Of a stretch of 22,294 nucleotides of DNA, positions 5,401 through 21,653 are shown piece by piece (position 1 is the first letter of the stretch; each line of letters begins with the position of its first letter). The notes under the pieces were generated by a model that was given only the letters and a program-made list of their open reading frames with translations, searched no databases and was not told the DNA's origin. A program made the translations under genes and the position numbers. The DNA comes from Candidatus Hermodarchaeota archaeon (lineage in GTDB: Archaea > Asgardarchaeota > Lokiarchaeia > Sigyniarchaeales > SOKP01), in contig JBHLLO010000047.1 in NCBI GenBank assembly GCA_048885535.1, positions 1 through 22,294 of the forward strand, written 5' to 3'.

Positions 5401-7667
5401 TTACTGAAATAAAAGGTTTAGAAAACATGGTTAATCTTCAAAAATTGACACTAGAACATAATCAGATAACAGAAATCAAGGGTTTAGAGAGACAATTCAA
5501 TCTGCAGTTATTACAACTCCAGATCAATAATATCACACAGACCAAGGGCTTAGAAAATTTGACTAATCTTCAAACCTTAAATCTCAGTGATAACAAAGTT
5601 GAGGATGTAAAAGGGCTAGCAAACTTGAGGAATCTTCAAGAATTATTCCTATTTAGTAATCAAATTAAGGATACTAAAGGTTTAGAAAATTTAAGAAATC
5701 TTCAACAACTACAAATCTATTATAATCAGATCGTAGATATAAAGGGTTTAGAAAATTTGATCAAACTTCAGAAATTATTCCTTTTCGGGAACAAAATTAA
5801 AAACATCACACCATTAACAAATCTAAGTAATCTTGAAATATTAGCCCTAAATAATAATGAAATCGCAGAAATCAAGGCCTTAAGAAATTTGATTCGCCTA
5901 CAAGTATTATTTCTTGAAAATAATCAAATAGAAGAAATTAAGAGTTTAGAAAATTTAACTAATATGCAAGAGTTGTATCTTGATAGTAATATGATAAGAG
6001 AGATCAAGGGATTGGAAAACATGGTTTATCTCCAAAAATTGACTCTCACTAATAACCAGATCACAAAAACCAAAGGTTTGGAAAACTTACAGAATCTGCA
6101 GTTATTAGAACTACAGAATAATCAAATTACAGAAATCGAGGGTTTGGAAAAACTGAGTAACCTTCAGAAGTTAAATTTAGAGAATAATAAACTCTCAGAA
6201 ATTAAGGGATTAGAAAGGATGGTTAATCTTGAATATCTAAATCTGAGTAGAAACGAAATAGTAAAGATGAATAACTTGAATAATTTAAAAAATTTGCAAG
6301 AATTATATCTTATAGGCAATAAAATTGAGGAGATTACCAATTTAGACAATTTAATAAATCTTAGAAAATTATTTCTTAAAAACAATAATATTGTTGAGGT
6401 TAAGGGTTTAGAAAACCTTGAAAATCTTGAATTCGTGAGTTTATTCGGAAATCCAATTAAAATGGAGGAACAAGAATACGTTAGTAAAGACATTCCTACA
6501 ATCTTACAGTTTTGCAAAGAAAAAGTAAGGGGGGTCATAAAAGAGATTCCAAAAGAAGAAGAGAAAATTGAAGAAAGAGTAGCAAGAGTTATTGATTTTG
6601 AATTTCTAAGTCGGCGAGCTGTAGGTGTGGATGGGTTTAAAAAAGCCTTTAATATAGCTTTTGAAAGGTATCATGAATTACTAGATTCTCCAGAAGATTA
6701 TTCAGATCTTGACTCTTCATTTCTTATTTCTAAAAAAGATGAAGTAATGAATAAATATCAATTTCCGACATTATACGATTTAGTATTAATTATGAAATAT
6801 GATTTAAATTTAGCCAAAAAAGTCGGAAAGTATTTATTAGATGAAGGTGCTATACCAAAATTCCCTAGAATCCCTGATTTTGAAAAAGTCAAAGATTTCA
6901 TAATTACTTTATCAAAATATGAAAAATATTATCCAATAGATACACTATGCGAAGAAAAGGAGATTGATTGCATCCATCTTAAGGACTATATCAGAGAGTT
7001 GATTGATTCTCAAGAATTAAACGTAAAAATTGATGAGAATGAATCTAAAATTATCTTTCTTGGGCAAGAAGGAAAAGTAAAAGCACAAGAGACTGTTCCG
7101 AAATCGGAAGCTACTGCAATGGAGGACGAAAAGAAAGAAAAACGATTTGAAGAACGCACTGACAAAACAAAACCGGGTCCGCCAGAAGAACCTATTAGCC
7201 CTCCTGCTCCAAAACCTATTCCTCCTCCTCCTCCACCTGAGGGAAAGATAAAGATATTCTTAAGCTATTCAAGTTTAGATTCAACAATATTCAATATTGA
7301 GGAAATTGTAAAGGAACTAAAAACCAATATTTTAAATGTTCAAGTAGATTGGATGGATAACCCAAAAAATACGGAAAGAAAATGGATGGATTTTATGAAT
7401 GAAAAAGTACCTCAATGTGATATTTTATTGCTAATCTGTTCGCCTAATTCAAAAAACTCAGATATGGTAATAGAAGAATGGCAAATGGCTGTAAGAAAAA
7501 AGAAGGTTGTAATCCCTATCTTTTATGAGAACGAATACATTCCAGATATACTTGAAACTTATAAAGGTTTTAAGTTTAATATATTTGACCCTAGAACCTC
7601 TATTAAAGGACTAATAGACCATATTAGAGGAAGATTGGAAGGACAAGTTCTTGATCGAATGGTTTAG
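2475..7667 (+). CDS. Giant cytosolic LRR (SDS22-like) + PCI-like winged helix + polyproline linker + TIR domain protein
   Basis: 59 in-register 22-aa LxxLxxLxLxxNxIxxIxGLxx units plus an N-terminal partial one. C-terminal KIFLSYS...CDILLLICSPNSKNSDMVIEEW...VIPIF is a TIR (TIR_2-like) domain with conserved Glu. No signal peptide or TM segment. Confidence 0.93.
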   Translation: MSSEYVIVDDKRYNVENNLLNLSGLGIYDISEIEGLDRLPNLIGLNLNNNNLTQLRGISHLTQLQILSAENNQIRTITGLENLTDLFAIGLGNNEITEIYGLENLIKLQILTLSSNHIREIKGLNSLINLQTLYINNNEIKDIKSLENLRNLQRLRLDGNQITEIRGLENLTYLQELQLHNNLIKEIRGLNNLSNLQTLYINNNEIKEIKGLENLRNLQTLTLNNNQIEEFKGIGNLVYLQQLQLHNNQIREIKGVENLTNLQLLHLDGNRIEDIRPLAKLINLQELFLFDNQIKDISSLTNLTNLVDLRLFNNQIIDIKAIEKMLQLEKLALDGNQITEIKSLDKLTKIQILQLHNNQIKEIKGLENLTQVQLLYLNNNQIREIKGLQNLSSLQELYLNNNEIKEIKDLENMVNLQRLTLENNHITEIKGLEFLNNLQDLRLFNNNIAEIKGLENLTNLQILYLDDNKIDEIKGLKNLRNLQELYLFNNQINEIRGLESLTNLNALHLYNNQITEIKGLERLTNLQILLLDSNKIKEIKGLSNLHNLQQLFLFGNEITNMNGLENLINLQDLRLYNNQITEIKGMEKMVYLQKLALDGNQITEIKGLENSPGIQILQLHRNQISEIEGLDHLTNLQILYLNENKIEEIKGLENMRNLQELYLFNNQIGEIKNLDNLTMLKALHLYNNQITEIKGLDNLTQLQVLYLDGNRIEKIEGLTNLMNLRDLSLFENQIKEIRGLENSVNLEDLRIYNNEITQITGLENLFNLKKLALDGNQITEVKGLENSTNIQILQLHNNQIRDISGLRNMINLTVLHLDGNQIENIEALRSLINLEQLFLFNNQIKDTSSLRNLTRLTDLRLFNNQITEIRGLENMIYLQKLGLDGNQITEIKGLENSPYIQILQLHNNQISEIKGLENLTNLEVLYLNNNNIREIKGLTNAVNLQELFLNNNQIQEIKGLDHLTNMQNLYLNNNNITEIKGLENMVNLQKLTLEHNQITEIKGLERQFNLQLLQLQINNITQTKGLENLTNLQTLNLSDNKVEDVKGLANLRNLQELFLFSNQIKDTKGLENLRNLQQLQIYYNQIVDIKGLENLIKLQKLFLFGNKIKNITPLTNLSNLEILALNNNEIAEIKALRNLIRLQVLFLENNQIEEIKSLENLTNMQELYLDSNMIREIKGLENMVYLQKLTLTNNQITKTKGLENLQNLQLLELQNNQITEIEGLEKLSNLQKLNLENNKLSEIKGLERMVNLEYLNLSRNEIVKMNNLNNLKNLQELYLIGNKIEEITNLDNLINLRKLFLKNNNIVEVKGLENLENLEFVSLFGNPIKMEEQEYVSKDIPTILQFCKEKVRGVIKEIPKEEEKIEERVARVIDFEFLSRRAVGVDGFKKAFNIAFERYHELLDSPEDYSDLDSSFLISKKDEVMNKYQFPTLYDLVLIMKYDLNLAKKVGKYLLDEGAIPKFPRIPDFEKVKDFIITLSKYEKYYPIDTLCEEKEIDCIHLKDYIRELIDSQELNVKIDENESKIIFLGQEGKVKAQETVPKSEATAMEDEKKEKRFEERTDKTKPGPPEEPISPPAPKPIPPPPPPEGKIKIFLSYSSLDSTIFNIEEIVKELKTNILNVQVDWMDNPKNTERKWMDFMNEKVPQCDILLLICSPNSKNSDMVIEEWQMAVRKKKVVIPIFYENEYIPDILETYKGFKFNIFDPRTSIKGLIDHIRGRLEGQVLDRMV
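2589..6460 (+). repeat. Coding tandem repeat, 66-nt period, 59 LRR units
   Basis: Manual parsing of the translation into 22-aa units without indels. Confidence 0.92.
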
Positions 7668-8886: not shown

Positions 8887-11286
8887 TTATATTCTACTCT
8901 GTAAGATTTTGATGCCCTCTAAAATATCTTTAGCATCTGAAGATTCAGTGAGTCCTAACTCATTGAGAATTTCTAAGGCTTGTTTTAAATGCTTCATGGC
9001 TTCTTGATCGTTCTCTTGAATCATATAAGTTAGCCCAATGTTCTTAAAAGTTTCAGCTTTTAATTTTAAATCGACTAATTGATCAACAATATTTTTTGCT
9101 TCTTTAAAGTTCTTTAATGCTTCATCAAATTTACGTTGGTATAAATAAATAACTCCAATACTATTTAAACAGAGCACTTTTTTTGACTGATCTCCCAATT
9201 GATTAAGAATCTGAAGAGTTTCTTCATACTTTTCTAATGCTTTAGTGTAATTATTTTGACGCTCATAAATTGCTCCAACTTTACTAAGATAATATGCCAT
9301 TTGAGAATTGTCACCAATACTTTCAGCAAGTTTAAGAGCTTTATTATAGTAATTTATGGCTTCAGTTAGATTATTTTGCTTTTCATATACTTGAGCAATA
9401 TTATTTGTATAAATGGCTTTATATCTCATATCCCCTAGTTTTTCTACAATTTGATAAGCTTTTTCAAACATTTTTAGTGCTTCAGAATAGTTCCCCTGTT
9501 TGTTATAAATCCCTCCAATATTATTAAGGCATACAGATTTTCCTGCCAAATCTCCTAATTGTTCGATTATTTCAAGCGCTTTTTCATGATTGGTTAATGC
9601 TTCAGAAAAAAGCTTCTGTTTCTGATAAATTAATCCTATATCGTTAAGATTATGAGCTATAGTGGGTAAATTACCTAATTCTTCTGCAATTTTATGTGAT
9701 TCCTCATATCGTCTTAACGCTTCGGGATAGTTTCCCTGATCTCTGTATATTCCTCCAATGTTAGTAAGGCATGAAGATAAAGCTCCCAAATTTCCTAATT
9801 CTTTAGAAATCTTAAGCGTTTCCTCAAAGTTCTTTAAAGCTTCAGGATAGTTATGTTGATTGGCATAAAGGAGCCCAATACTGTTAAGGCATTTAGCTTT
9901 AATACCAAGATCTAAAAATTTAGAGAGTTTAAGTGCTTCTTCAAGCTTTTCTAACGCTTTAGAATACATTCCTTGTATATTATATATTGTTCCGATATCA
10001 ATATAACAATGGACTAATTTTTCGAAGTCTCCAAAATCTCCGAGCCAATTTAGGGATTCTTCATAATAGCCTAATGCTTTCGAATAGTCTCCCTTATAAT
10101 GAGCAATCTGCCCCATTTCATAGATTGCTGTTGCTCTCCAATAGTCTTCTCCTTTTTCTTTAGCGATTTCAATAATGGTTTCTAAACATCTTTCAGCATG
10201 GTCATATACATTAAGATCTTGGTATATTCGATATGAGGTATAATATTTCAATATCTGAATTGGCACAGGAATGTCTCTTTCTCTGAATTTAACCAAATCT
10301 AATTTTATGCTTTCTTTTAGCCAATCTCCTATATTAATAGAGAATTTATCAGAACTTAATGCTGGTTTTGTATCCAAAAGATCCTCTACAAGTCTAGAAG
10401 TATTTGTATCAACCCTGTAAACGTGAACTTTATTATTAAATCGCAAAATATCTCCTAATATTTGATTAACTTTATCAACTACTTCTCCTGGTTTTCCAAT
10501 AATATCTGCAGTGAGCTCGTAAATACTTTCCTTTCCTCCATCATCAGCAACGTAATTAATCCATATAATATTCTCAAGGTTTCTCAAAACTTTTAAAGTT
10601 GGAACAATATCAAAATCATCACTTCCAGAATAGCCCATTACCACTAGGGAGCGATTTTCTGTGAGGTTTGTAAATGCAGGTTGTTTAAATGATTCAAGTT
10701 GAAATACATTCTCCTCTTTCTTATTTGCTCCAAATGCTTGTAGGGTAGCAATCAATGAATCTCTTGTACTTTTATCCTGTATAATATTTTTAGTTGAGCC
10801 ATGTATTTTATAGAGAGTATACTTTCCTTTCTTTAATTGCTTATAAGGATTCTGGAAATCTATAAAATCTTGTTTTGTAATCACAGGAAGAATATCATTA
10901 AGAGAGACCCCAGACTGCTGCAAAGCATATTCAATTAAGAAATCAAAGTTGGTCGTAATAACAAAACTTCCATTCTTAATCATACTAGCAAGAAAAAAGT
11001 GCTGAATATTTGGTTTATCTGAAAGTTCATATAAATCTATAATTCTTAGATCCGGGTCCGATTGATCTCTAATGATTTCTACTAGCTGTTCAAATCGAAG
11101 GTCTTTTAACTCCTTAATCTTATCGATTTCTGTTTCAGCACACATATAATCGATAATTGCATCCATCATTGTTCTTCCTGCTGGCAAACAAGAGGGAGGA
11201 TCAACGGAGCATCCAGCTCCTATTAAGAAGGTCAATTTTGTGTCTGGAGTAATTAAGTCCTTAACGGTTAGATTAGTAAGTTTCAT
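8887..11286 (-). CDS. SIR2-like (SIR2_2, putative NADase) domain fused to 11 TPRs
   Basis: Sirtuin motifs FLIGAGCS...LP, VITTNFD, LYKIHGS, VVMGYSGSDDFDI, followed by 40-aa-period TPRs (CLNNIGGIYNKQGNYSEAL..FEKA). Confidence 0.92.
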   Translation of the reverse strand: MKLTNLTVKDLITPDTKLTFLIGAGCSVDPPSCLPAGRTMMDAIIDYMCAETEIDKIKELKDLRFEQLVEIIRDQSDPDLRIIDLYELSDKPNIQHFFLASMIKNGSFVITTNFDFLIEYALQQSGVSLNDILPVITKQDFIDFQNPYKQLKKGKYTLYKIHGSTKNIIQDKSTRDSLIATLQAFGANKKEENVFQLESFKQPAFTNLTENRSLVVMGYSGSDDFDIVPTLKVLRNLENIIWINYVADDGGKESIYELTADIIGKPGEVVDKVNQILGDILRFNNKVHVYRVDTNTSRLVEDLLDTKPALSSDKFSINIGDWLKESIKLDLVKFRERDIPVPIQILKYYTSYRIYQDLNVYDHAERCLETIIEIAKEKGEDYWRATAIYEMGQIAHYKGDYSKALGYYEESLNWLGDFGDFEKLVHCYIDIGTIYNIQGMYSKALEKLEEALKLSKFLDLGIKAKCLNSIGLLYANQHNYPEALKNFEETLKISKELGNLGALSSCLTNIGGIYRDQGNYPEALRRYEESHKIAEELGNLPTIAHNLNDIGLIYQKQKLFSEALTNHEKALEIIEQLGDLAGKSVCLNNIGGIYNKQGNYSEALKMFEKAYQIVEKLGDMRYKAIYTNNIAQVYEKQNNLTEAINYYNKALKLAESIGDNSQMAYYLSKVGAIYERQNNYTKALEKYEETLQILNQLGDQSKKVLCLNSIGVIYLYQRKFDEALKNFKEAKNIVDQLVDLKLKAETFKNIGLTYMIQENDQEAMKHLKQALEILNELGLTESSDAKDILEGIKILQSRI

Positions 11287-11491
11287 AATACGCCCTCTTA
11301 AAATTAATTATTAAATAATGTTATATCCGATATATTTGTATTTAACATTAATGTAGGAATGACCTAATATTAATTTTAAAATTTAACAATTATCTCTTTT
11401 AACATTTAAACTACCTTATAGATTTTCTAACTTTCTACTCAAGATAATTGAAAGTTTAGAGAAAATTCAAACGGAAATGATTGGATTTCTA

Positions 11492-11505
11492 GAAAACTTT
11501 ATAAA
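11492..11505 (+). promoter_or_regulatory. Putative BRE/TATA box for the receptor-TIR gene
   Basis: GAAAACTTTATAAA matches the archaeal purine-rich BRE + TTTATAWA consensus, 100 nt upstream of ATG 11606. Confidence 0.5.
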
Positions 11506-11605
11506 TTTAAGAATCAGTAATGTTATTGAAATCATACAATTATGTAAAAAGTTCCTTATATAGAGAAATTCAATAATTTCATTTATTATAAAGTGGTAAA
11601 AATCT

Positions 11606-14600
11606 ATGAAAAATATTCGAGTAAAAGTAAAATTAGTTTTATTACTAATTCTAGCTCTAATTGTAATCCCAAATTTAGTACTAACTAATCAGAGAGATAT
11701 AAAAGCCTCTTCTGATGAAAAAAAGCCTATGGAAGATATTACTCCACAGCCTCCAAAAGAAGCTGCTATTTATTATGAACCAACGACTGGATCTGCACAT
11801 GATGTTTTTGTGAGCGGAGATTATGCCTATGTAGGGGCTACGACCTCAGGATTGGCAGTTATTGATATTTCCGACCCAACAGATCCAGGAACGCCCGTCG
11901 ACCTAGCCTTGACTAGCTTTGCTTATGATGTTTTCGTAAGTGGAGATTATGCCTATGTTGCAGCTTATGGTTCTGGATTAGCGATCATCGATATTTCGGA
12001 TCCGACAAGCCCAGTACTAGTCACCTATGAGAGTACGACAGGAGCGGCTCATGGCGTTTTCGTTAGCGGAGATTATGCTTATGTAGGGACTACGAGCTCA
12101 GGTTTGGCGGTTATTGACATTTCTGATCCAACAAACCCGGGATTGCCCGTTTACGAAACTTTGACCGATTGGGCATATGGTGTTTATGTAAGTGGGGATT
12201 ATGCTTATGTGGGAGCTACGAGTTCAGGTTTGGCTGTCGTTGATATTTCCGATCCTACAAGTCCAGCATTGGTCACCTACGAAAACACAAGTGGTTTCTC
12301 ATATGATGTTTTTGTGAGCGGAGATTATGCATATGTAGCAGATGGAAACTATGGTTTAGCAGTTGTTGACATTTCCAACCCTGCAAACCCAGGAATCCCG
12401 ATCTACGAAGATACGAACGATTGGGCACATGATGTTTACGTTAGCGGAGATTACGCTTATGTAGGGGATGATACATCTGGATTAGCAGTGATTGACATTT
12501 CTGACCCTACAGACCCAAAAGTATCTATTTATGAAGATACGACCAGCTCTGTAGCTGGTGTTTACGTAAGTGGTGATCATGCTTATGTGGGAGCTGGAGG
12601 TTCGGGTTTAGCAGTTATCGATATTTCCAAGCCTACAAACCCAAGATTGCCTGTCTACGAGGACACATCTGGTACTGCATTTGGAGTTTATATAAGCGGA
12701 GATTATGCTTATGTAGCAGATCATAATACAGGATTAGCAGTTATCGATATCTCTGACCCTACAAACCCTGGAGCGCCCATCTACGAAGATACGAGTGGTT
12801 CAGCACGAGATGTTTATGTGAGTGGAGATTACGCTTATGTAGCGGATGATACATATGGCTTAGCGGTCATTGATATTTCCAACCCTACAAACCCAGGATT
12901 GCCTTTTTATGAAGATACAGATGGAGCCGCACGAGGTGTTTGTGTGAGCGGAGATTATGCTTATATATCAGATTACAATTATGGTTTAGCGGTCATTGAT
13001 ATTTCCGATCCTACAAACCCAGGAGCGCCCTTCAGTGAAAGTACAAATGGGTTTGCACGTAGTGTTTATGTTAGCGGAGATTATGCTTACCTAGGAGTGG
13101 GGAGCTATGGCTTAGCGGTCATCAATATTTCCAACCCTACAGATCCAGTAATAACAGCTTATGAAGATACTTCCGGTACTGCATATGGAGTCTACGTGAG
13201 CGGAGACTATGCCTACGTGGCAGATTATGGTTATGGGCTAGCAATCATCGACATTTCTGATCCTACCAATCCAGGAACACCCATCTATGAAACCAATGTT
13301 AATTCTGCATATGATGTTTACGTAAGCGGAGATTATGCTTATGTAGCTAGTTATGATGATGGTTTAGCAGTTATTGACATTTCCGACCCTACAAACCCGG
13401 GAGTACCCATCTACGAAGATATGGCCAATTGGGCGATGAGTGTTTACGTGAGCGGAGATTATGCTTATTTAGCGGATTATAATTCAGGTTTGGCAGTCAT
13501 TCAAGTTCGAGAGAGGTATGATATAGTAGATCCGCTAATTACAATACTTTATCCAAACGTTAATAATAATCTATTCGGAACAACTGCGCCAAGTTTTAAC
13601 GTTAAATTTAAAGATATATATCCTGGTTTAGATACTTTATGGTATACTATTGATGGAGGAATTAATAATAGAACTTTTGTTACAAATGGGTCAATAAATC
13701 AAAATTTATGGTTAAGTAGGGGAAATGGAACTGTAAATATTAGATTTTATGCAAATGATTCATCTGGAAATGTTAACTGGAAGGATATAATTGTTAGAAA
13801 GGATATTTTAGCTCCAAGTATTACAATCAACGCTCCCACTCCAAACCAAGAGTTCGAAACTACTCCGTCCTACGATCTTTCCATAATTGAAGGAAATTTA
13901 GATAAGATCTGGTATTCATTAGATAATGGTGCTACATATAAATTCATCACAAGTTTATCAGGAACGATAGATCAAGCAGTTTGGGATGGAATTTCGGAAG
14001 GATCTGTTACCATCCGATTTTATGCAAATGATACCTTAGGAAATTATGATTGGGAAGATGTTAATGTTATAAAAGTGGTAATACCATTTTGGAAAGAGAT
14101 ATGGTTCTGGGCTTTAGTTATTTCAGTATTAATACTTTCAGTTTTTATTATCCCAGTTGTAGTTAAACGTGCACGTTATAAGCGTAGACGTAAAGAAGTT
14201 AAAAAAATGATAGATAGCTATGTTCTTACCCATGATGTAAAACTTATGATATCATATTCCCATGAAGATGCTCCAAAATTCCAAATACCGAAAGTTTCAG
14301 AAATGTTAGGAAAGTACGATAAAATCAAACAAGTAATATACTCCCAAAAAGATACTAGGGATGATTTTATTCGATATATGGATAAAAATATTCGGGAATC
14401 AGATGCGCTGCTCTTATTTTGCAGTAAAAAGAGTCTTAATTCAGAATTTGTAATTGATGAATGGACCGCAGCAAGAGCATTGAAAAAACCAATCATCCCC
14501 ATATTCATCGATAAATCTTATATCCCATCTTTACTAAGTGCGAAATTAGGTGTTCCGTTCTATGAGAAGAAATTATCCGACACAGTTGAAGAAATCTATG

Positions 14601-14656
14601 CAGTCGTTAAAAAACGGCTTGGAGAACCCATTAAAGTTGAATTGAACAATAGGTAA
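11606..14656 (+). CDS. Single-pass membrane receptor: signal peptide, 14 LVIVD beta-propeller repeats, 2 Ig-like domains, TM helix, cytoplasmic TIR
   Basis: N-terminal MKNIRVKVKLVLLLILALIVIP; 14 x 42-aa VxVSGDYAYV....GLAVIDISDP; two WY(T/S)(I/L)DxG...IRFYANDxxGN modules; TM 14087-14164 followed by KRARYKRRRK; TIR LMISYSHED...SDALLLFCSKKSLNSEFVIDEW...IIPIF. Confidence 0.93.
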   Translation: MKNIRVKVKLVLLLILALIVIPNLVLTNQRDIKASSDEKKPMEDITPQPPKEAAIYYEPTTGSAHDVFVSGDYAYVGATTSGLAVIDISDPTDPGTPVDLALTSFAYDVFVSGDYAYVAAYGSGLAIIDISDPTSPVLVTYESTTGAAHGVFVSGDYAYVGTTSSGLAVIDISDPTNPGLPVYETLTDWAYGVYVSGDYAYVGATSSGLAVVDISDPTSPALVTYENTSGFSYDVFVSGDYAYVADGNYGLAVVDISNPANPGIPIYEDTNDWAHDVYVSGDYAYVGDDTSGLAVIDISDPTDPKVSIYEDTTSSVAGVYVSGDHAYVGAGGSGLAVIDISKPTNPRLPVYEDTSGTAFGVYISGDYAYVADHNTGLAVIDISDPTNPGAPIYEDTSGSARDVYVSGDYAYVADDTYGLAVIDISNPTNPGLPFYEDTDGAARGVCVSGDYAYISDYNYGLAVIDISDPTNPGAPFSESTNGFARSVYVSGDYAYLGVGSYGLAVINISNPTDPVITAYEDTSGTAYGVYVSGDYAYVADYGYGLAIIDISDPTNPGTPIYETNVNSAYDVYVSGDYAYVASYDDGLAVIDISDPTNPGVPIYEDMANWAMSVYVSGDYAYLADYNSGLAVIQVRERYDIVDPLITILYPNVNNNLFGTTAPSFNVKFKDIYPGLDTLWYTIDGGINNRTFVTNGSINQNLWLSRGNGTVNIRFYANDSSGNVNWKDIIVRKDILAPSITINAPTPNQEFETTPSYDLSIIEGNLDKIWYSLDNGATYKFITSLSGTIDQAVWDGISEGSVTIRFYANDTLGNYDWEDVNVIKVVIPFWKEIWFWALVISVLILSVFIIPVVVKRARYKRRRKEVKKMIDSYVLTHDVKLMISYSHEDAPKFQIPKVSEMLGKYDKIKQVIYSQKDTRDDFIRYMDKNIRESDALLLFCSKKSLNSEFVIDEWTAARALKKPIIPIFIDKSYIPSLLSAKLGVPFYEKKLSDTVEEIYAVVKKRLGEPIKVELNNR
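11774..13510 (+). repeat. Coding tandem repeat, 126-nt period, 14 LVIVD units
   Basis: Recurrent AGYGGAGATTATGC...GATATTTC at 126-nt spacing; 14 units counted in the translation. Confidence 0.92.
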
Positions 14657-14743
14657 GCTTAGATAGGACTTTTCATAAAATAATCTTTAAATTGTTTATC
14701 GAGAATTAGTATAAAGAATTCTGTTAAAGAAAATAACCAAAAA

Positions 14744-14760
14744 CCGTTAAACTTATAAAT
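14744..14760 (+). promoter_or_regulatory. Putative BRE/TATA box for the vWA gene
   Basis: CCGTTAAACTTATAAAT about 67 nt upstream of ATG 14827; SD-like GAGGG at 14816-14820. Confidence 0.45.
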
Positions 14761-14826
14761 AAATACGTTGCTTTTATAAAATGTATTAATACTACATTTA
14801 TGTCAAATTAGAAATGAGGGTTTAAA

Positions 14827-17088
14827 ATGCCTATTGAGGGTGAAACAATACCAAACATTTACTTGTCTGGAGAAGATTTTATGCATAATTATGAATCATT
14901 CCCTCCAGAGGATGATCTCTCTGGAAAGACTATTTTACTTTCTTTTCTAGATTATGAGGAAATCATTCCAGGTAATAGTACAATTCTTATAAATTGTCTA
15001 TTAAATTTATGTCAGCTGTATTCTACTCACTGCATTCAAATAGTTATAGTCTTTCCTGTATTAAATGGTACAACCGAACTAACTGTTAAGACATGGCTAG
15101 AAGGACTTGGTGTCAATTTTCCTGCTATCCACAGTTTTGATATTTGGAGAGATTTTATGACAGGTATAACAGATGGAACAGAGGAAGTGAGACCCCATTC
15201 TTTTATTCTCGAGAAGATCGATCCCGATAACTGGATTATTAGAAAACGATATTGTGTATTACCTCCAGTATGTAGTGATTTGGAAGATTTCTTATTAAGC
15301 TTCATAGATGTACGTGAGCCTATAGATTTAGAAATGGTTATGGATGTCTCTGGGAGTATGAACAGCATTCCTCCTAATGCGAATGAAACGAAGTACGAGA
15401 TGATGAAGAAAGCCATTACTATAGTTGGAACCTATTTAAAGGATAATGCGCATTGTGATGATAGAATGGGATTGATTTGGTTTACGGATGAGGCAAGTGA
15501 TTACTCAAGAAATAATCAAAAATTATTTCGAATTAAAACTAATTGGGATGAGTTAAGTGTTCAGGTTAATAACCATGGAACAGGTAACTGTACTGCTATG
15601 GGAGCAGGTTTACAGACAGCAATTAATACCTTATCTTCAAGTAACCAGAAATTTGTAATTTTATGTACCGATGGAATGCAAAATATAAACCCAATGGTAT
15701 TAGACCTTACAGCACCCGATGGTTCTGTATACTATGCAATTGTAAATGATGACGTACGATATCGCGAGTGTGGACCACATTCTCAGGTTGAACCTTCAGG
15801 TACAGATATTTCTAGCTACAATACTTGTGTTCATACTATTGGCATTGGGATTATAGAAGATTATGATTTAATTCTAGATGGTATAGCTACCGAAACACAA
15901 GGTTTTTACCAAGAAACGAATAATCCTGGAGACGATCTATTAGGGGATTATTTCGTAGCACTCCTTGATTGTTTGGGTAGAGGTTCTCCCTCAATTCTAT
16001 ATATTAATAACGGGAATTTATCTATAGAAGAGCATGAAAAATCAGAGATCTTCCATCTCAACAGCTCTGTTCGAAAAATAACTGTAATCATTTCTTGGAA
16101 AAAATCACAAGGGAGTAATTTCATGTTCTGGTTGTATACCCCTGATGGGGTGCTCTTAGATCTACATAATGAGATGAGAATCTATGAGCACCATTGTATG
16201 GCAACAATATATTTACCTAAACGACAAAATGGGGACAATTTGGAGTATATAGGTGAATGGCGTATGATGATTCGAGGCGAGATACCTAATAGTTCTGCTG
16301 ATTATAATGTAATTATCATTGGGGAGGATAAAGATATCAAATTGGTTTTTGATTTTCCAAGAAAACGATTTGAAGTTGGCGACCTACTCCCAATTAAAGT
16401 TTTTATTTTAAAGAAGAAAAAACCATTAGCTATTGAGCCTAAGGAGATCACTATAGAAAAGAAACTTTTACTTACACCGCTTCCTGAACTTATAGCTAAA
16501 TATAAAATATCTCCAAATGAGTTGTTAGAAAAAACGAAAACCATACCAGATAGAGCTCCTAAGAACCTTCTAAATCTGAAACTTAAAGTTATGACTTCTG
16601 ATCCAAAATTTCAAAAAAGTTTAATACCTGATATTAAACGATTCTCTCTTCAAAGAGGAAATCTTGAGTGTAAATTTGAAAAAGAGGAAGTTCTCATCCC
16701 TATTGCTCTGGAACAACCAGGGACACATAATTTTAAAATAAGAGTCCGATACGAGAGTCCTGAAGAGGGTCCTATATGTCGTACACATATGATTTCGATA
16801 ATAGTGGAACCTGGTAAAGTCGATCCTAAACAGTCTGATTTCAGAAAGAAAGGCAAGATGATTTATATTACTCCTCGTAATAAAAAGGGTCAATTATTTG
16901 GTCCAGGATATAGCCATAAGTTTAAACTGCAAGCTGGGGAAAAAGAATATGATATCGAATTCAAGGACTTATTGGACGGTACATACCAGATTGAACTTCC
17001 AGAGAAAGTAGTGGAAGAAATAAAAGAGAAAAAACTTGATGTTGACATCATATTCCGTAAGAATGTAATCTGGAGAAGAAAATTATAA
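14827..17088 (+). CDS. vWA domain protein with N-terminal redoxin/thioredoxin-like fold and C-terminal beta-sandwich/Ig-like domains
   Basis: Intact MIDAS: VMDVSGSM, GNCTAMGAGL, VILCTDG, VHTIGIG. N-terminus GETIP...LSGKTILLSF...IQIVIV...NFP...PHSFILE follows the AhpC/TSA-TlpA pattern without CxxC. C-terminal ISW...LYTPDG...GEW and ITPRNKKGQLFGPG...DLLDGTY motifs. Confidence 0.85.
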   Translation: MPIEGETIPNIYLSGEDFMHNYESFPPEDDLSGKTILLSFLDYEEIIPGNSTILINCLLNLCQLYSTHCIQIVIVFPVLNGTTELTVKTWLEGLGVNFPAIHSFDIWRDFMTGITDGTEEVRPHSFILEKIDPDNWIIRKRYCVLPPVCSDLEDFLLSFIDVREPIDLEMVMDVSGSMNSIPPNANETKYEMMKKAITIVGTYLKDNAHCDDRMGLIWFTDEASDYSRNNQKLFRIKTNWDELSVQVNNHGTGNCTAMGAGLQTAINTLSSSNQKFVILCTDGMQNINPMVLDLTAPDGSVYYAIVNDDVRYRECGPHSQVEPSGTDISSYNTCVHTIGIGIIEDYDLILDGIATETQGFYQETNNPGDDLLGDYFVALLDCLGRGSPSILYINNGNLSIEEHEKSEIFHLNSSVRKITVIISWKKSQGSNFMFWLYTPDGVLLDLHNEMRIYEHHCMATIYLPKRQNGDNLEYIGEWRMMIRGEIPNSSADYNVIIIGEDKDIKLVFDFPRKRFEVGDLLPIKVFILKKKKPLAIEPKEITIEKKLLLTPLPELIAKYKISPNELLEKTKTIPDRAPKNLLNLKLKVMTSDPKFQKSLIPDIKRFSLQRGNLECKFEKEEVLIPIALEQPGTHNFKIRVRYESPEEGPICRTHMISIIVEPGKVDPKQSDFRKKGKMIYITPRNKKGQLFGPGYSHKFKLQAGEKEYDIEFKDLLDGTYQIELPEKVVEEIKEKKLDVDIIFRKNVIWRRKL

Positions 17089-18395: not shown

Positions 18396-21300
18396 ATGCT
18401 TAAAATTTTTTTAAGTTCTACCTATCGAGACTTAACAGATGCTCGCTCAAAAATTCTTCAACAGTTAAATTCTGCTTTTAAGGTGGTTGGGATGGAGGAA
18501 TTTATCCCAGATGGTTCTGATTCGCAAGAGGTTTGTATCGGTAATTTAAAAAAAGTGAAAGGAAATGGGATTGTAATTTTTCTAATTTCTCCATATTATG
18601 GTTCCCTCATGGAATCATGTTCGCTTAAAGAAGATTGTAAAGCGGAGTGCCCCATGAAAGGTGACGGTCATATTTCATATACTCATTGTGAGTATAAAAC
18701 AACTATAGCTGAGGGAATTTTGCATCAAACATATCTTGTCGCAAAGGGCTGGGACGCTCCTGATGTAAAGAAGGGGGCTTTGCAATTCAAGGAGGAAATT
18801 GGAAAAGAATATCTCGGGTTTGTTGATATCGAAGATCCTAACTTATTAGGGTTAATTTGCAGTAACTTGGCAACAAAAATTACTGAATGGCATGTGCAAA
18901 ATAAATTAGAGTTCCCTAAATTTGTTGATAGGGAGGAAAAACTTAATGAAATCATTGAAAATATCAACGGGAAAGTCGAAGTATGGGGTGTTGGTGGTGT
19001 GGGAAAAACTGCATTAATAGAAGTAGCCCTTCTTATTCAAAAGTTAAAGGGAAAAAGTATAATTACAATTGGAACACCGAAAACTTATGCAAGTGGTTCT
19101 GGATTTAAGGACTTTAGGGATAAGTCTGAAGAAGCTCAATATATAGCGGATTCACCAGATCAAATTACAATTTATGATGTTATAAATGCCTTAGTTAAGG
19201 TCAAATTAATATCTAATGTCGATGAGGTTATGAAAATGCCTTCCAATGAAAAGATCGCACTCTTATCTAAGATAGTTAGAAGAGAGAAAAATCTGATTCT
19301 ATTTATCGACGACTTTCATTTAGCAACTGAAGAGGTGGTGGAGATAGCAAAATCAGTAGATCATGTTATCCTTTCTTCTCGAAGGAATTCCTATATCGCA
19401 AAAGACATTTATTTAAGTGGCATTGATAAAGAAGAGAGAGAGAATCTGATAAATCTTTTTTCTATAGAGCCACTTCCTAAGGATGTTAAGAATTTGATTG
19501 CTAATATTACCGAGGGTCATCCTGTATCTACTGCAATACTTGTAAAGAATTATCAGAAGATCAACTTTAATAACCTCAAGGGTTTTGATCTTAAGAATGC
19601 TAACCAAGGGCAGATTAATGATTTTTTTAGAAGAGTGATTGAGGAAATATTCTCTTCAAACCCTAATGCATTACAATTGCTTGAAGATCTTTCTGTATTA
19701 AATACGGATTTAGAAACTAATATTGATCGAGAAAGTATTGAAAAAATATATTCCTCTGAAGATGTTTCTAATGATTTTAATGAGTTAATAGACGCGGGGA
19801 TGTTGAAAAAGAAGGAAGGCTCCCATAGCACATATGAATTTTCTTTCAAACATATTCAAGATGCTCTTGAAGATAAAGCATCTGCTGAGAGCCATGAAAA
19901 AGCGATCCTATATTATGAAACAAAAGAGAAACTCATGCAAGACAAATATATGATTGATGACGAGGTAGAGATTCTTTATCACAAAGTAAAATCAAATCCT
20001 ATAGAACAATTAGTGGATGAATTGCTTGAGATAAAAGAAAGACTATATCCTATCCATTATGGGTTCAAGCGTTTAATTCATGTAGGTGAAGAATTAAAGA
20101 CTTCAGTTAATGAAATAGATAAGGCATATATAGATTTGACGCTTGGACTTTTATTCAGAGATTTAAGGCGATTTAAAGAGGCTGAAACCATGTTTTTTAA
20201 CTCATTAAATGTTTATAAAAAGTTAGCAGAGCAGAATCCTGAAGACTATCTACCGGAAGTTGCCTTAACGCAGAATAACCTTGGAGCACTATATTATGAT
20301 TTAAAAAGATTTAAGGAAGCAGAAACGATGTATCTTGATGCTTTAAAGTTAAGAAAGGAGCTAGCAGAAAAGAATCCAGATACATATCTATCTGATTTTG
20401 CTTTAACTCAGAATAACCTTGGAGCTTTATACAATGATTTAAAGAGATTTGAGGAGGCAGAGACTATGTTTCTAGACGCATTAAAGTTAAGAAAGAAGTT
20501 AGCAGAGCAAACTCCCGAAGCATATCTACCCGATCTTGCCATCACGCAGAATAGCCTTGGAACTTTATATACTTATTTAAAGCGGTTTGAGCAGGCAGAA
20601 ACCATGTATCTTGATGCATTAAAACTAGGAATGAAGTTAGCAGAGCAGAATCCTGATGGCTATTTGCCCGATGTTGCTATGACAAAGAATAACCTTGGAG
20701 CTTTATATACTTATTTAAATCGATTTGAGGAGGCAGAGACCATGTATCTTGACACATTAAGCCTAAGAGTGAAGTTAGCAGAACAGAATCCAGAAACCTA
20801 TTTACCTGCTGTCGCTTTAGCTCAAAATAACCTTGGAACTTTATATGTTAATTTAAGGAGGTTTGAGGAGGCAGAAACCATGTATCTTAAAGCATTAAAT
20901 ATAAGAATTAAGTTAGCAGAAAAGAATCCTGATGTATATCTACTCGACATTGCCATGACTCAGAATAACCTTGGAAACTTATATATTTATCTAGAGCGAT
21001 ACCAGGATGCAGAGACCATGTATCTTAACTCATTAAACGCTTTTAAAGAATTAGCAAGTCAAAATCCTGATGCATATCTTTCTAACGTTGCTATGGCTCA
21101 GAATAATCTTGGAGTTTTATATAATGATTTAAATCGGTTTGAGGTGTCAGAGACCATGTATCTAAACTCATTAAATACTTATAAAGAGTTAGCAGAACGG
21201 AGTCCCGATGCCTATCTCCCCGCTCTCGCAGAGACTCAGAATAACCTTGGAAGCTTATATGCTGATTTAAGGCGGTTCAAAGCAGCAGAAACCATATATC

Positions 21301-21653
21301 TCGATGTATTAAACACGAGAATGAAGTTAGCAGATCAAAATCCCGATATATATCTCCCTGCTGTTGCAGATACTCAAAATAATCTTGGAATTTTATACAT
21401 TCAAATGAAAAGATACGAAGAAGCGGAGAATTATTTTAATAACATATTGGATAAATATCCTAATTACGGTTCTGCTTGGTATAATAAAGCGTGTCTTGCA
21501 TCCCTAAAGAATAATAAAGAAAAAGCTTTAGAATATCTTAATAAAGCAATCGATCTTGATCAAACTTATATTGATATGGCAAAATCTGATGAGGACTTTA
21601 ATAATTTACGAGGTTTAGAAGAATTCAAGAAATTATTGGGTGAATTAATTTAA
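18396..21653 (+). CDS. NLR/Avs-like protein: DUF4062 (TIR-like) + STAND P-loop NTPase + TPR sensor
   Basis: KIFLSSTYRDL...R, GMEEF, YGS, ISYTHCEY (DUF4062); FVDREE, Walker A VWGVGGVGKT, Walker B LILFIDD, GHP (GxP); nine 46-aa TPRs plus two canonical TPRs and a YNKAC...DEDFNNLR cap. Confidence 0.92.
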   Translation: MLKIFLSSTYRDLTDARSKILQQLNSAFKVVGMEEFIPDGSDSQEVCIGNLKKVKGNGIVIFLISPYYGSLMESCSLKEDCKAECPMKGDGHISYTHCEYKTTIAEGILHQTYLVAKGWDAPDVKKGALQFKEEIGKEYLGFVDIEDPNLLGLICSNLATKITEWHVQNKLEFPKFVDREEKLNEIIENINGKVEVWGVGGVGKTALIEVALLIQKLKGKSIITIGTPKTYASGSGFKDFRDKSEEAQYIADSPDQITIYDVINALVKVKLISNVDEVMKMPSNEKIALLSKIVRREKNLILFIDDFHLATEEVVEIAKSVDHVILSSRRNSYIAKDIYLSGIDKEERENLINLFSIEPLPKDVKNLIANITEGHPVSTAILVKNYQKINFNNLKGFDLKNANQGQINDFFRRVIEEIFSSNPNALQLLEDLSVLNTDLETNIDRESIEKIYSSEDVSNDFNELIDAGMLKKKEGSHSTYEFSFKHIQDALEDKASAESHEKAILYYETKEKLMQDKYMIDDEVEILYHKVKSNPIEQLVDELLEIKERLYPIHYGFKRLIHVGEELKTSVNEIDKAYIDLTLGLLFRDLRRFKEAETMFFNSLNVYKKLAEQNPEDYLPEVALTQNNLGALYYDLKRFKEAETMYLDALKLRKELAEKNPDTYLSDFALTQNNLGALYNDLKRFEEAETMFLDALKLRKKLAEQTPEAYLPDLAITQNSLGTLYTYLKRFEQAETMYLDALKLGMKLAEQNPDGYLPDVAMTKNNLGALYTYLNRFEEAETMYLDTLSLRVKLAEQNPETYLPAVALAQNNLGTLYVNLRRFEEAETMYLKALNIRIKLAEKNPDVYLLDIAMTQNNLGNLYIYLERYQDAETMYLNSLNAFKELASQNPDAYLSNVAMAQNNLGVLYNDLNRFEVSETMYLNSLNTYKELAERSPDAYLPALAETQNNLGSLYADLRRFKAAETIYLDVLNTRMKLADQNPDIYLPAVADTQNNLGILYIQMKRYEEAENYFNNILDKYPNYGSAWYNKACLASLKNNKEKALEYLNKAIDLDQTYIDMAKSDEDFNNLRGLEEFKKLLGELI
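20121..21362 (+). repeat. Coding tandem repeat, 138-nt period, nine 46-aa TPR units
   Basis: Recurrent CAGAATAACCTTGGA and GCAGA(A/G)ACCATGTATCT at 138-nt spacing. Confidence 0.9.

What the first reader, a model, noticed from the sequence alone, without database searches (positions are those of the whole stretch)
11606..14656. Toll/IL-1 receptor-like topology in a prokaryote: propeller + Ig ectodomain, one TM helix, cytoplasmic TIR
Seen: signal peptide, 14 LVIVD blades (consistent with two 7-bladed propellers), two Ig-like stalk modules, a TM helix with a positive-inside KRARYKRRRK, and a TIR with putative catalytic Glu (14459-14461). Established: ectodomain-TM-TIR is the architecture of animal TLR/IL-1R, whereas characterised prokaryotic TIR effectors are mostly cytosolic. 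Inference: ligand-induced clustering of this receptor activates the TIR, sensing viruses or partner cells from outside.
Basis: partly seen in the sequence, partly recalled or inferred. Interest (0 to 1): 0.9.

Follow-up and report, generated by a model that had tools for sequence, protein, structure and literature searches.

The report
Archaeal surface receptor with TIR tail
An Asgard archaeon encodes a membrane protein with a large outside sensor part and an inside TIR domain, the layout of animal Toll-like receptors, and its relatives carry whole families of such proteins with different outside parts.

Summary
ORF 11606-14656 (+) encodes 1016 aa: a signal-like N-terminus, 14 LVIVD repeats of exactly 42 residues, two Ig-like stalk modules, one TM helix followed by KRARYKRRRK, and a C-terminal TIR_2 domain. 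Its Glu952 is kept in 151 of 152 relatives and aligns with the Glu of the WVHKE motif of the NAD hydrolase TIR-1.

It is not an assembly chimera. An independent metagenome contig carries an ungapped 84%-identical ortholog, and all domains are under purifying selection.

The host is an Asgard archaeon. Two TM-TIR cassettes recur there behind interchangeable ectodomains: LVIVD and other propellers, beta-helix, and solute-binding proteins. Related genomes hold five or six such genes. In this genome two paralogous stalk-TM surface proteins are translationally coupled to small TIR proteins, and relatives encode the same pair as one ORF.

Best reading (0.55): an outside-in, single-pass receptor whose output is a catalytically competent TIR. 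It resembles TLR/IL-1R in layout, not by descent; the TIR is of the TIR_2/SARM1 type.

Ligand, activation by clustering and NADase activity are untested. Both structure-prediction jobs failed, so the folds rest on sequence profiles only. I found no paper describing this family.

The parts
11487..11550 (+). Conserved promoter-like block upstream of the gene (contains AAACTTTATAAAT)
   Evidence: Nearly identical between the window and the orthologous contig L047, while the flanking intergenic DNA is not alignable. A promoter function is inferred.
11606..11695 (+). Signal-peptide-like N-terminus (basic n-region MKNIRVKVK, hydrophobic 8-26)
   Evidence: Hydropathy 2.82 over residues 8-26. Conserved in the ortholog. 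Whether it is cleaved or acts as an anchor was not tested.
11780..13543 (+). 14 LVIVD repeats (residues 59-646), the acidic ectodomain
   Evidence: Pfam LVIVD 14 stretches, E 1.1e-151. Exact 42-aa spacing. 126-nt tandem period. D+E 81 against K+R 8. dN/dS 0.13-0.17 against the ortholog.
13544..13810 (+). Stalk module 1 (residues 647-735), Ig-like by sequence
   Evidence: A repeated module found in 566 proteins, those with a source name being Asgard. Four N-X-S/T sequons. No Pfam hit on its own.
13811..14083 (+). Stalk module 2 (residues 736-826), Ig-like (Big_13/Y_Y_Y-like)
   Evidence: Big_13 E 0.029 and Big_7 E 0.08, both sub-threshold. Multi-copy relatives pass the Y_Y_Y and Big_13 thresholds.
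14084..14164 (+). Juxtamembrane PFWKEIWFW motif and TM helix (residues 827-853)
   Evidence: Hydropathy 2.9 over 835-853. The same nine residues stand at the TM entry of two bacterial sensor histidine kinases.
14165..14194 (+). Positive-inside stretch KRARYKRRRK (residues 854-863)
   Evidence: Read directly from the sequence. K+R is 2 before and 10 after the TM. All 13 single-pass relatives show the same bias.
14237..14623 (+). TIR_2 domain (residues 878-1006)
   Evidence: Pfam TIR_2 49.1 bits, cut-off 28. A TIR-core profile matches solved TIR structures: 9m0n 6.5e-6, TIR-1 0.0036, Hydra TRR-2 0.0077. dN/dS 0.24.
14459..14461 (+). Glu952, putative catalytic glutamate
   Evidence: E in 151 of 152 relatives. 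Aligns with the E of WVHKE in C. elegans TIR-1, chain 8p2m. That this is the catalytic Glu of SARM1/TIR-1 is recalled, not taken from a call.
14728..14807 (+). Conserved promoter-like block between the TIR gene and the VWA gene
   Evidence: About 80 nt nearly identical to L047, with two TATA-like boxes and an ATGTA..TACAT inverted repeat. Function is inferred.
14827..17088 (+). Conserved neighbour: 753-aa cytosolic VWA_2 protein
   Evidence: VWA_2 E 5e-8. The 73%-identical ortholog lies directly downstream of the receptor ortholog in L047. In G125 it lies next to the N-terminus of an LVIVD protein. Found in only 2 of 121 genomes of the order, G000 included.

Best explanation
This is a type-I, single-pass membrane protein of an Asgard archaeon. 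An acidic LVIVD beta-propeller-type ectodomain on a two-module Ig-like stalk faces outward. One helix crosses the membrane. About 25 residues later a TIR_2 domain with the NADase-type glutamate sits in the cytoplasm.

It belongs to a lineage-specific, expanded family in which TM-TIR cassettes are combined with interchangeable extracellular modules.

The most likely mechanism is as follows. Engagement or cross-linking of the ectodomain brings the membrane-proximal TIR domains together. The ligand could be a glycan, a surface of a virus or of a partner cell, or envelope damage. The assembled TIRs then cleave NAD+, either depleting it or making an ADPR-derived signal.

Shown: the architecture, its conservation, the purifying selection, the domain swapping, the split/fused equivalence in paralogues, and the conserved Glu.

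Inferred: the orientation (hydropathy and the positive-inside rule), the folds, the enzymatic activity, activation by clustering, and the nature of the ligand.
For: - Domains and topology.
- A full-length ortholog on an independent contig is 850/1012 identical with 0 gaps. dN/dS is 0.13-0.27 in every domain.
- P0066 and P0074 share stalk, TM and TIR (64-67% identity over 98% of residues 640-1016) behind a different N-terminal repeat. P0061 has the same LVIVD ectodomain and stalk but a non-TIR tail.
- 13 of 152 TIR relatives are single-pass with a large ectodomain, and all 13 have a positive-inside bias. Their ectodomains include Peripla_BP_6, SBP_bac_5, NosD beta-helix, SBBP propeller, TSP3 and Kre9-like Ig. 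Every one that carries a source name is Asgard.
- On the tree they fall mainly into two membrane-linked clades, with support 94 and 97*.
- In G204, 5 of 11 TIR-clade genes are large ORFs with a TM upstream of the TIR. In G328 this holds for 6 of the 7 examined. Their ectodomains are named.
- In this genome 3 of 9 stalk-bearing proteins are linked to a TIR: one fused, and two followed by a small TIR gene with a 4-nt overlap. The same pair is one ORF in G144, G328, G204 and G216.
- Glu952 is conserved in 151 of 152 and aligns with the WVHKE Glu of TIR-1, whereas Hydra TRR-2 has T at that position.
- PFWKEIWFW plus the TM helix is shared with Reg_prop/Y_Y_Y sensor kinases.
Against: - There is no structure. 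Both prediction jobs failed, so the TIR, Ig and propeller folds rest on profiles.
- No topology predictor was run.
- The match to known defence-system models is weak: PADLOC gives only bSEFIR at E 0.002, and ThsB_TIR is below its cut-off.
- A conserved Glu does not prove activity. [quoted passage not shown]
- No downstream signal receptor was identified. The adjacent SIR2-TPR gene is not conserved in the orthologous locus.
- The ectodomain shows no sign of diversifying selection in the one ortholog pair.
- The bacterial kinase matches were found by an exact-motif scan, so their E-values overstate the case.
- The tree is FastTree on 131 columns and needs at least 3 changes of the single-pass label.
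Confidence: 0.55

Rival explanations
1. Scaffold rather than enzyme. As in animal TLRs, the membrane-tethered TIR works by TIR-TIR contacts. It recruits cytosolic TIR proteins, such as the LRR-TIR encoded 4 kb upstream or the small TIR proteins, and these carry the signal or the effector activity.
For: - The genome holds 9 TIR_2 matches, among them a cytosolic 33-LRR TIR protein in the same window.
- The orthologous locus also has a second TIR protein nearby, a Ras-GTPase-TIR fusion.
- In the paralogous systems the TIR is a separate, translationally coupled protein.
- PMC7075850 notes that the conserved Glu also occurs in groups without reported activity (passages read).
Against: - The Glu is kept in 151 of 152 relatives, and the domain is of the TIR_2 type that aligns with TIR-1/SARM1.
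- The two neighbouring cytosolic TIRs are not orthologous: 19% identity.
Confidence: 0.15
2. Not a ligand-gated receptor. The protein is mainly a structural or adhesive envelope protein of the kind that is abundant in Asgard archaea. The TIR is a tethered suicide or stress module set off by envelope damage or by cytoplasmic cues. Alternatively it is a general environmental (nutrient) signalling output unrelated to immunity.
For: - The stalk module occurs in 566 detected proteins, most without a TIR, and in 9 proteins of this genome.
- P0061 has the same ectodomain with a non-TIR tail.
- LVIVD / choice-of-anchor B is a generic surface module.
- The solute-binding ectodomains of relatives would also fit nutrient sensing.
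- There is no diversifying selection.
Against: - The same TM-TIR cassette is recombined with ligand-binding modules, and the fusion is maintained or translationally coupled in many genomes.
- The window is dense in conflict-type domains: two TIR domains, DUF4062, SIR2, a STAND ATPase and TPR repeats.
Confidence: 0.2
3. Artefact: a chimeric assembly joining an LVIVD surface gene to an unrelated TM-TIR gene through the repeated stalk modules.
For: The stalk modules are repeated across many genes. In run X4 the Logan contigs break inside stalk module 2 (13952-13981), where the two contigs overlap by 30 nt.
Against: - Contig L047, from a separate JGI metagenome record, carries the same full-length gene (84% identity, no gaps) followed by the same VWA gene.
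- A 4681-nt contig of run X1 spans 13400-14900 without a difference, although X1 may be the source sample.
- The Ig-TM-TIR junction is also present in P0066 and P0074.
Confidence: 0.01

Closest known systems
Animal Toll-like receptors and IL-1 receptors
   Same: A signal peptide, a large repeat or Ig-type ectodomain, one TM helix, a short juxtamembrane linker and a C-terminal cytoplasmic TIR. Paralogues with different ectodomains are numerous.
   Different: - The ectodomain is LVIVD plus bacterial-type Ig modules, not LRR or C2-set Ig.
- The TIR scores as TIR_2 (PF13676), with no PF01582 hit at E <= 0.01.
- It keeps the NADase-type Glu, which the Hydra TLR-type TIR lacks in the alignment.
- No MyD88-like partner was identified (no search for one was made).
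- The resemblance is one of layout and is most simply explained by independent domain shuffling.
SARM1/TIR-1 and bacterial TIR NADases (Thoeris ThsB and others)
   Same: TIR_2-type domain. Glu952 aligns with the WVHKE Glu of TIR-1. ESM-Atlas feature neighbours are ThsB/TIR_2 clusters with a score of 0.93. Activation by self-association is the rule in this group (recalled).
   Different: Those proteins are cytosolic (SARM1 sits on the mitochondrial surface). Here the TIR is tethered about 25 residues below a TM helix, under an ectodomain of more than 800 aa. ThsB_TIR scores 18.8 bits, below its 21.2 cut-off. No ThsA-type partner was identified; none was searched for.
Bacterial propeller-type sensor histidine kinases (Reg_prop / Y_Y_Y - TM - kinase)
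   Same: A beta-propeller repeat ectodomain, a membrane-proximal Ig-like module, the identical PFWKEIWFW entry into the TM helix, and basic residues after it. These kinases are accepted transmembrane signalling receptors.
   Different: The output is a TIR instead of a kinase. The propeller repeats are LVIVD, not Reg_prop. The Y_Y_Y model does not hit this protein itself. The bacterial examples were found by an exact-motif scan.
Receptor-like single-TM immune proteins predicted in bacteria (PCTM and TIR-ParA receptor-like subtype); Rst_2TM_1TM_TIR
   Same: The idea of an extracellular or periplasmic sensor coupled through one TM helix to a cytoplasmic immune module, described in preprint 10.64898/2026.10.19.760177 (passages read). 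A TIR associated with membrane proteins occurs in Rst_2TM_1TM_TIR, which is listed as enriched in Asgard in PMC11291487 (passages read).
   Different: In those systems the cytoplasmic domain fused to the TM helix is ParA, the topology is type II, and the hosts are bacteria. Rst_2TM_1TM_TIR is a multi-gene system. PADLOC gave no such match for this protein.

Membership tests
TIR_2 (PF13676) domain family | Profile score above the curated cut-off | tested here: met
   49.1 bits against a cut-off of 28, residues 881-986.
TIR_2 (PF13676) domain family | TIR (flavodoxin-like) fold | tested here: inconclusive
   A TIR-core profile matches solved TIR chains over nearly its whole length: 9m0n 6.5e-6, 8p2m 0.0036, 4w8g 0.0077. 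Both structure-prediction jobs failed.
Enzymatic (NADase) TIRs such as SARM1/TIR-1, ThsB, AbTir | Conserved catalytic glutamate | tested here: met
   E952 is conserved in 151 of 152 relatives and aligns with the E of WVHKE in TIR-1 chain 8p2m. The catalytic role of that residue is recalled.
Enzymatic (NADase) TIRs such as SARM1/TIR-1, ThsB, AbTir | NAD+ cleavage on oligomerisation | not testable with these tools
   This needs biochemistry. The self-association job (complex prediction) never ran.
Toll-like receptors | LRR ectodomain | tested here: not met
   The ectodomain is 14 LVIVD repeats, with no LRR hit.
Toll-like receptors | Animal-type TIR (PF01582) | tested here: not met
   No PF01582 hit at E <= 0.01. 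TIR_2 is the best family.
Toll-like receptors / IL-1R | Single TM helix with a cytoplasmic C-terminal TIR | tested here: met
   Hydropathy and positive-inside bias. No dedicated predictor was run.
Thoeris (ThsB + ThsA) | ThsB_TIR profile above its cut-off, with an adjacent ThsA (SIR2 or Macro with a signal-binding domain) | tested here: not met
   ThsB_TIR scores 18.8 bits, below 21.2. The adjacent SIR2_2 protein carries TPR repeats, and no signal-binding family (SLOG or Macro) appears among its 25 best Pfam rows of 28. It is absent from the orthologous locus.
LVIVD / choice-of-anchor B surface proteins | LVIVD repeats and the TIGR04312 domain above their cut-offs | tested here: met
   492.4 bits and 117.8 bits against a cut-off of 100.
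Reg_prop / Y_Y_Y sensor kinases | Y_Y_Y profile and a cytoplasmic histidine kinase | tested here: not met
   No Y_Y_Y hit on this protein even at E <= 10, and no kinase domain. Only the juxtamembrane motif and the layout are shared.

The most novel reading that the evidence does not exclude
Asgard archaea have a true receptor-type TIR signalling system. It would be a family of single-pass surface receptors, five or six per genome in the two relatives examined, with swapped ligand-binding ectodomains: propellers, beta-helices and solute-binding proteins. Their common output would be a catalytically active, membrane-tethered TIR. Sensing outside the cell through a TIR would then not be an animal invention; it would exist, independently assembled, in the archaeal lineage closest to eukaryotes. 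Direct ancestry of eukaryotic TIR receptors from this family is a further step that I rate at only about 0.03.
Probability: 0.45. Interest if true: 0.85.

Novelty: new variant of a known kind. Interest (0 to 1): 0.72.

Why it matters
Prokaryotic TIR proteins studied so far act inside the cell as sensors or effectors of abortive infection. Sensing the outside world through a TIR is known from animal TLR and IL-1 receptors.

A conserved, expanded family of ectodomain-TM-TIR proteins in Asgard archaea would change that picture in three ways:
- Cell-surface sensing coupled to TIR chemistry would be shown to have arisen in prokaryotes.
- It would provide a simple system for asking how ectodomain engagement switches on a TIR enzyme across a membrane.
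- It would open the question of what these archaea, which live in close contact with partner cells and viruses, recognise at their surface.

The swapped ectodomains, some of them solute-binding proteins, make ligand hunting and chimeric-receptor experiments directly feasible.

Tried and rejected
- Structure prediction. The tool answered that it was not ready. It accepted jobs at (TIR, alignment A1; full length, alignment A4). Both jobs failed and the cap then closed the tool. No model and no fold search were possible.
- Complex prediction (TIR x 2 copies) never ran. The queue was full, and there was no usable answer. No verdict.
- The second protein-atlas search failed.
- The genome-contig scan with the TM-TIR query found no archaeal ortholog. 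It found only two bacterial kinases and one bacterial TIR.
- phmmer against PDB found nothing for the TIR alone or for the LVIVD region.
- PADLOC gave no defence-system assignment.
- No RNA holder was listed among the sequencing runs.
- Rfam and tRNA scans of the window were empty.
- A conserved partnership with SIR2-TPR was rejected. It is not in the orthologous locus, and only 2 of 8 paralogues in this genome lie next to a TIR gene.
- A VWA gene downstream of the split TIR operons was rejected. Those neighbours are aIF5B and an FG-GAP protein.
- Orthology of the neighbouring cytosolic TIRs was rejected (19% identity).
- Chimeric assembly was rejected.
- Literature. Searches found no paper describing ectodomain-TM-TIR proteins in Asgard or other archaea. 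The library lacks most subscription journals, and supplements were closed, so defence-system tables of PMC13700489 and PMC11291487 could hold such genes unseen.
Full report
**The gene.** The window is a whole 22,294-nt contig (C47) of a 3.09-Mb genome in 112 contigs. The genome has 30% G+C and is 91.6% complete. ORF 11606..14656 on the + strand encodes 1016 residues.

Pfam finds 14 LVIVD stretches (E 1.1e-151) and a TIR_2 domain at residues 881-986 (E 1e-12; 49.1 bits against a cut-off of 28). The LVIVD array shows at the DNA level as a 126-nt period with 13.4 copies. At the protein level it shows as 14 GD[YH]AY motifs spaced exactly 42 residues apart. NCBIfam adds the choice-of-anchor B domain above its cut-off.

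Between the array and the membrane lie two ~90-residue modules, 647-735 and 736-826. In this protein they give only sub-threshold Big_13/Big_7 matches. Relatives that carry many tandem copies of the module pass the thresholds of both Big_13 and Y_Y_Y.

Hydropathy finds two hydrophobic segments, 8-26 and 835-853. The second is followed by KRARYKRRRK. K+R is 2 in the 15 residues before it and 10 in the 15 after. The ectodomain is very acidic (81 D+E against 8 K+R in the LVIVD part). It holds all 7 N-X-S/T sequons; the 190 residues from the juxtamembrane motif to the C-terminus hold none. Two reservations remain: the orientation rests on hydropathy and the positive-inside rule, and the folds rest on sequence profiles.

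**The TIR domain.** In an alignment with 59 short relatives, Glu952 (nt 14459-14461) is one of five invariant positions. Among 152 TIR cores it is E in 151 and D in one.

A TIR-core profile built from 37 sequences matches solved TIR chains:
- the N-terminal TIR of the TPR protein 9m0n (E 6.5e-6);
- a bacterial SEFIR domain (E 0.002);
- the C. elegans NAD hydrolase TIR-1 (E 0.0036);
- Hydra Toll-receptor-related 2 (E 0.0077);
- a SARM1/TIR-1 chimera (E 0.019).

In the printed alignment Glu952 falls on the E of WVHKE in TIR-1, and Hydra TRR-2 has T at that place. That this E is the catalytic residue of SARM1/TIR-1 is my recollection. ThsB_TIR is below its cut-off and PF01582 gives no hit. PADLOC gives only a weak bSEFIR match. 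ESM-Atlas feature neighbours are TIR_2/ThsB-like clusters. The domain is thus a TIR_2-type TIR with the NADase-type Glu and belongs to no named defence system.

**Not a chimera.** A JGI metagenome contig (L047) carries a 1045-aa ortholog that is 850/1012 identical without a single gap. Directly after it comes a 73%-identical ortholog of the downstream VWA gene. dN/dS between the two receptor genes is 0.13-0.27 in every domain.

In public runs, one contig of X1 (possibly the source sample) spans 13400-14900 with no difference. In X4, another sample of the same study, two contigs overlap by 30 nt inside stalk module 2, and the second runs through the TM helix and TIR into the intergenic region. 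The stalk-TM-TIR junction also stands in P0066 and P0074, and the LVIVD-stalk junction in P0061 and P0088.

**Who has it.** Homologues of the stalk number 566 detected proteins. Those with a source name are Asgard archaea: Promethearchaeota, Thor-, Hod-, Hermod- and Heimdallarchaeota.

The TM-TIR query finds 709 representative proteins. I classified the best 150 together with P0001 and P0066:
- 108 are soluble;
- 13 are single-pass with an ectodomain of at least 150 residues;
- 6 are short with one or two TM segments;
- 12 are polytopic;
- 13 have TM segments elsewhere.

All 13 single-pass proteins have 0-2 K+R before the helix and 6-10 after it. Their ectodomains are diverse: LVIVD, another propeller-like repeat, SBBP propeller, NosD beta-helix, Peripla_BP_6, SBP_bac_5, TSP3 and Kre9-like Ig. 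Those with a source name are Hod-, Loki-, Sigyn- and Thorarchaeota.

On a FastTree of the TIR cores (131 columns, so weakly resolved) the single-pass proteins are clustered. They need 7 changes against a shuffled mean of 12.7, and 0 of 500 shuffles were as low. They lie mainly in two clades. One (support 94) holds this protein together with P0066, P0074, P0123, P0125 and P0124. The other (97*) holds eight proteins, seven of which have a hydrophobic segment close upstream of the TIR; P0169 has further ones and was classed polytopic. Starred branches force at least 3 changes, so more than one origin is likely.

In a sample of 301 genomes of the phylum, the TIR clade was found in 46 (G000 among them). 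In the window's own family it was found in 39 of 68 genomes, G000 not counted.

**Split and fused forms.** Nine ORFs of this genome carry the stalk module. One is the protein in hand. Two others (C29 and C95) end in a TM helix and a short cytoplasmic tail. Each is followed on the same strand, with a 4-nt overlap, by a 207- or 216-aa cytosolic TIR_2 protein.

I searched with that small TIR protein in 101 genomes of the family (G000 among them) and found matches in 48. The best matches outside G000 are the C-termini of ORFs of 1001-1697 residues. These read signal, beta-helix ectodomain, TM helix, the same tail motif, the same helical linker and the TIR, all in one frame. They occur in G144, G328, G204 and G216. 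A cytosolic LRR protein of G094 carries the same tail-linker-TIR module.

In G204 (100% complete), 5 of 11 TIR-clade ORFs are large proteins with a TM helix 32-259 residues upstream of the TIR and a positive-inside bias. In G328 the same holds for 6 of the 7 examined, out of 8 matches. The ectodomains are NosD beta-helix, SBP_bac_5, Peripla_BP_6 with beta-helix, and a WD40-like propeller with beta-helix. The link between surface proteins and TIR domains is therefore recurrent, and it is kept whether the two are fused or translationally coupled.

**A lead to bona fide receptors.** The scan of bacterial and archaeal genomes with motifs of the TM-TIR query returned two bacterial proteins with the identical nine residues PFWKEIWFW at the entry of their TM helix. 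Pfam shows that both are sensor histidine kinases. One has Reg_prop repeats, an Ig-like module, a TM helix and His_kinase/HATPase_c. The other has Y_Y_Y, a TM helix and HisKA_3/HATPase_c. BLASTP of stalk module 2 plus the TM helix gives E 3e-10 and 2e-6. Because the hits were found through the exact motif, these values overstate the case. Even so, the layout of propeller repeats, a membrane-proximal Ig-like module and the same juxtamembrane element matches that of accepted transmembrane sensors, with the kinase replaced by a TIR.

**Context.** The window is dense in conflict-type domains:
- a TPR protein;
- a cytosolic protein with 33 LRR_4 stretches (Pfam) and a TIR_2 domain;
- a small polytopic membrane protein;
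- a divergently transcribed SIR2_2-TPR protein;
- the receptor and the VWA protein;
- a DUF4062-ATPase-TPR protein.

Only the VWA gene is conserved next to the receptor. In L047 the upstream genes are instead a Ras-GTPase-TIR fusion, a small membrane protein that is not detectably related to the window's one (best BLASTP E 0.52), and a DUF2207_C-NUDIX membrane protein. The VWA protein is rare, found in 2 of 121 genomes of the order, G000 among them. In the other genome, G125, it lies next to the N-terminus of an LVIVD protein that is cut by the contig end. Both the receptor gene and the VWA gene are preceded by conserved TATA-like blocks.

**Mechanism.** I commit to an outside-in receptor. Ectodomain engagement or cross-linking brings the membrane-proximal TIRs together, and they then cleave NAD+. 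Activation of TIR enzymes by self-association is established knowledge for SARM1, plant TIRs and bacterial TIRs (recalled). The layout, the conservation and the Glu are shown. Activity, trigger and ligand are inferred.

The rivals are:
- a non-enzymatic scaffold TIR that recruits cytosolic TIR proteins;
- an envelope protein with a tethered suicide or stress module, or a nutrient sensor;
- a chimeric assembly, which the evidence above rules out as far as these data go.

**Novelty.** Eight full-text searches found no description of ectodomain-TM-TIR proteins in archaea. So did reading passages of PMC13700489, PMC11291487, PMC11249213, PMC7075850 and two preprints. The nearest idea in print is a 2026 preprint that predicts receptor-like single-TM ParA and TIR-ParA systems in bacteria. 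NCBI already labels some family members 'TIR domain-containing protein'. Subscription journals and supplements were out of reach.

I rate this a new variant of a known kind. The parts are known and the layout is known from animals. What I did not find described is a conserved, expanded archaeal family with that layout.

**What could not be done.** As a result, four points are open: the two-propeller reading of the 14 blades, the Ig fold of the stalk, the TIR fold by structure, and TIR self-association.

Noticed in passing
window 2475-7667 (+): A 1730-aa protein with 33 LRR_4 stretches and a C-terminal TIR_2 domain (residues 1594-1702). It has no hydrophobic segment, so it is a cytosolic LRR-TIR: the TLR domain pair without the membrane.
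   Followed up: partly
window 8887-11286 (-): A SIR2_2 + TPR protein transcribed divergently from the receptor gene. It is one of 8 paralogues in the genome. Two of the 8 lie next to a TIR gene (this one, and the one on contig C9 beside a TIR gene with a 1123-aa open frame whose held part ends in LRR-like repeats). It is not conserved in the orthologous locus L047.
   Followed up: partly
window 18396-21653 (+): A 1085-aa protein with DUF4062, weak sub-threshold ATPase matches (ATPase_2, AAA_16) and many TPR repeats. Together with the other genes it makes the contig look like a conflict/immunity island.
   Followed up: no
L010 5685-10282 (-) and L011 3294-7810 (-) (G000 contigs C29 and C95): Two paralogous two-gene units. 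Each has a 1289- or 1325-aa stalk-bearing surface protein with a TM helix and a cytoplasmic tail, overlapped by 4 nt with a 207- or 216-aa TIR_2 protein. Relatives (G144, G328, G204, G216) encode the same parts as one ORF. The tail matches the PADLOC candidate PDC-M34B (E 2e-5).
   Followed up: yes
L047 1123-2934 (+) and 4517-6310 (+): Next to the receptor ortholog lie a Ras-family small GTPase fused to a TIR_2 domain (603 aa) and a membrane protein with DUF2207_C and a C-terminal NUDIX domain (597 aa).
   Followed up: partly
P0198, P0200, P0214, P0144, P0142, P0152, P0162 (C-termini after the TIR): The second clade of membrane-linked TIR proteins carries a conserved extension after the TIR. 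It is about 190-235 aa long (373 aa in P0162) and has no Pfam family. It is mutually alignable (E down to 1e-101) and absent from the window's genome.
   Followed up: partly
L014 5862-8792 (+), L016 1329-3200 (+): Two bacterial sensor histidine kinases, from a Chitinophaga MAG and a Verrucomicrobiota MAG. Both share the exact PFWKEIWFW motif at the start of their TM helix with the archaeal receptor.
   Followed up: partly
P0061 (1209 aa): It has the same signal peptide, LVIVD array and stalk modules as the receptor. After the TM helix, however, it ends in a lysine-rich helical tail instead of a TIR. The cytoplasmic tails of these surface proteins are as interchangeable as their ectodomains.
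   Followed up: no
window 11487-11550 and 14728-14807: Intergenic blocks conserved with L047 upstream of both the receptor gene and the VWA gene. Each contains an AAACTT(T)ATAAAT element. The second also has an ATGTA..TACAT inverted repeat. They may mark separate but similar promoters.
   Followed up: partly
L107 (G071 contig C31) 2-8000 (+): Two tandem paralogous receptor-TIR genes (1405 aa, and at least 1262 aa up to the end of the fetched stretch) lie head to tail on one short contig. This suggests local duplication of these receptors.
   Followed up: no
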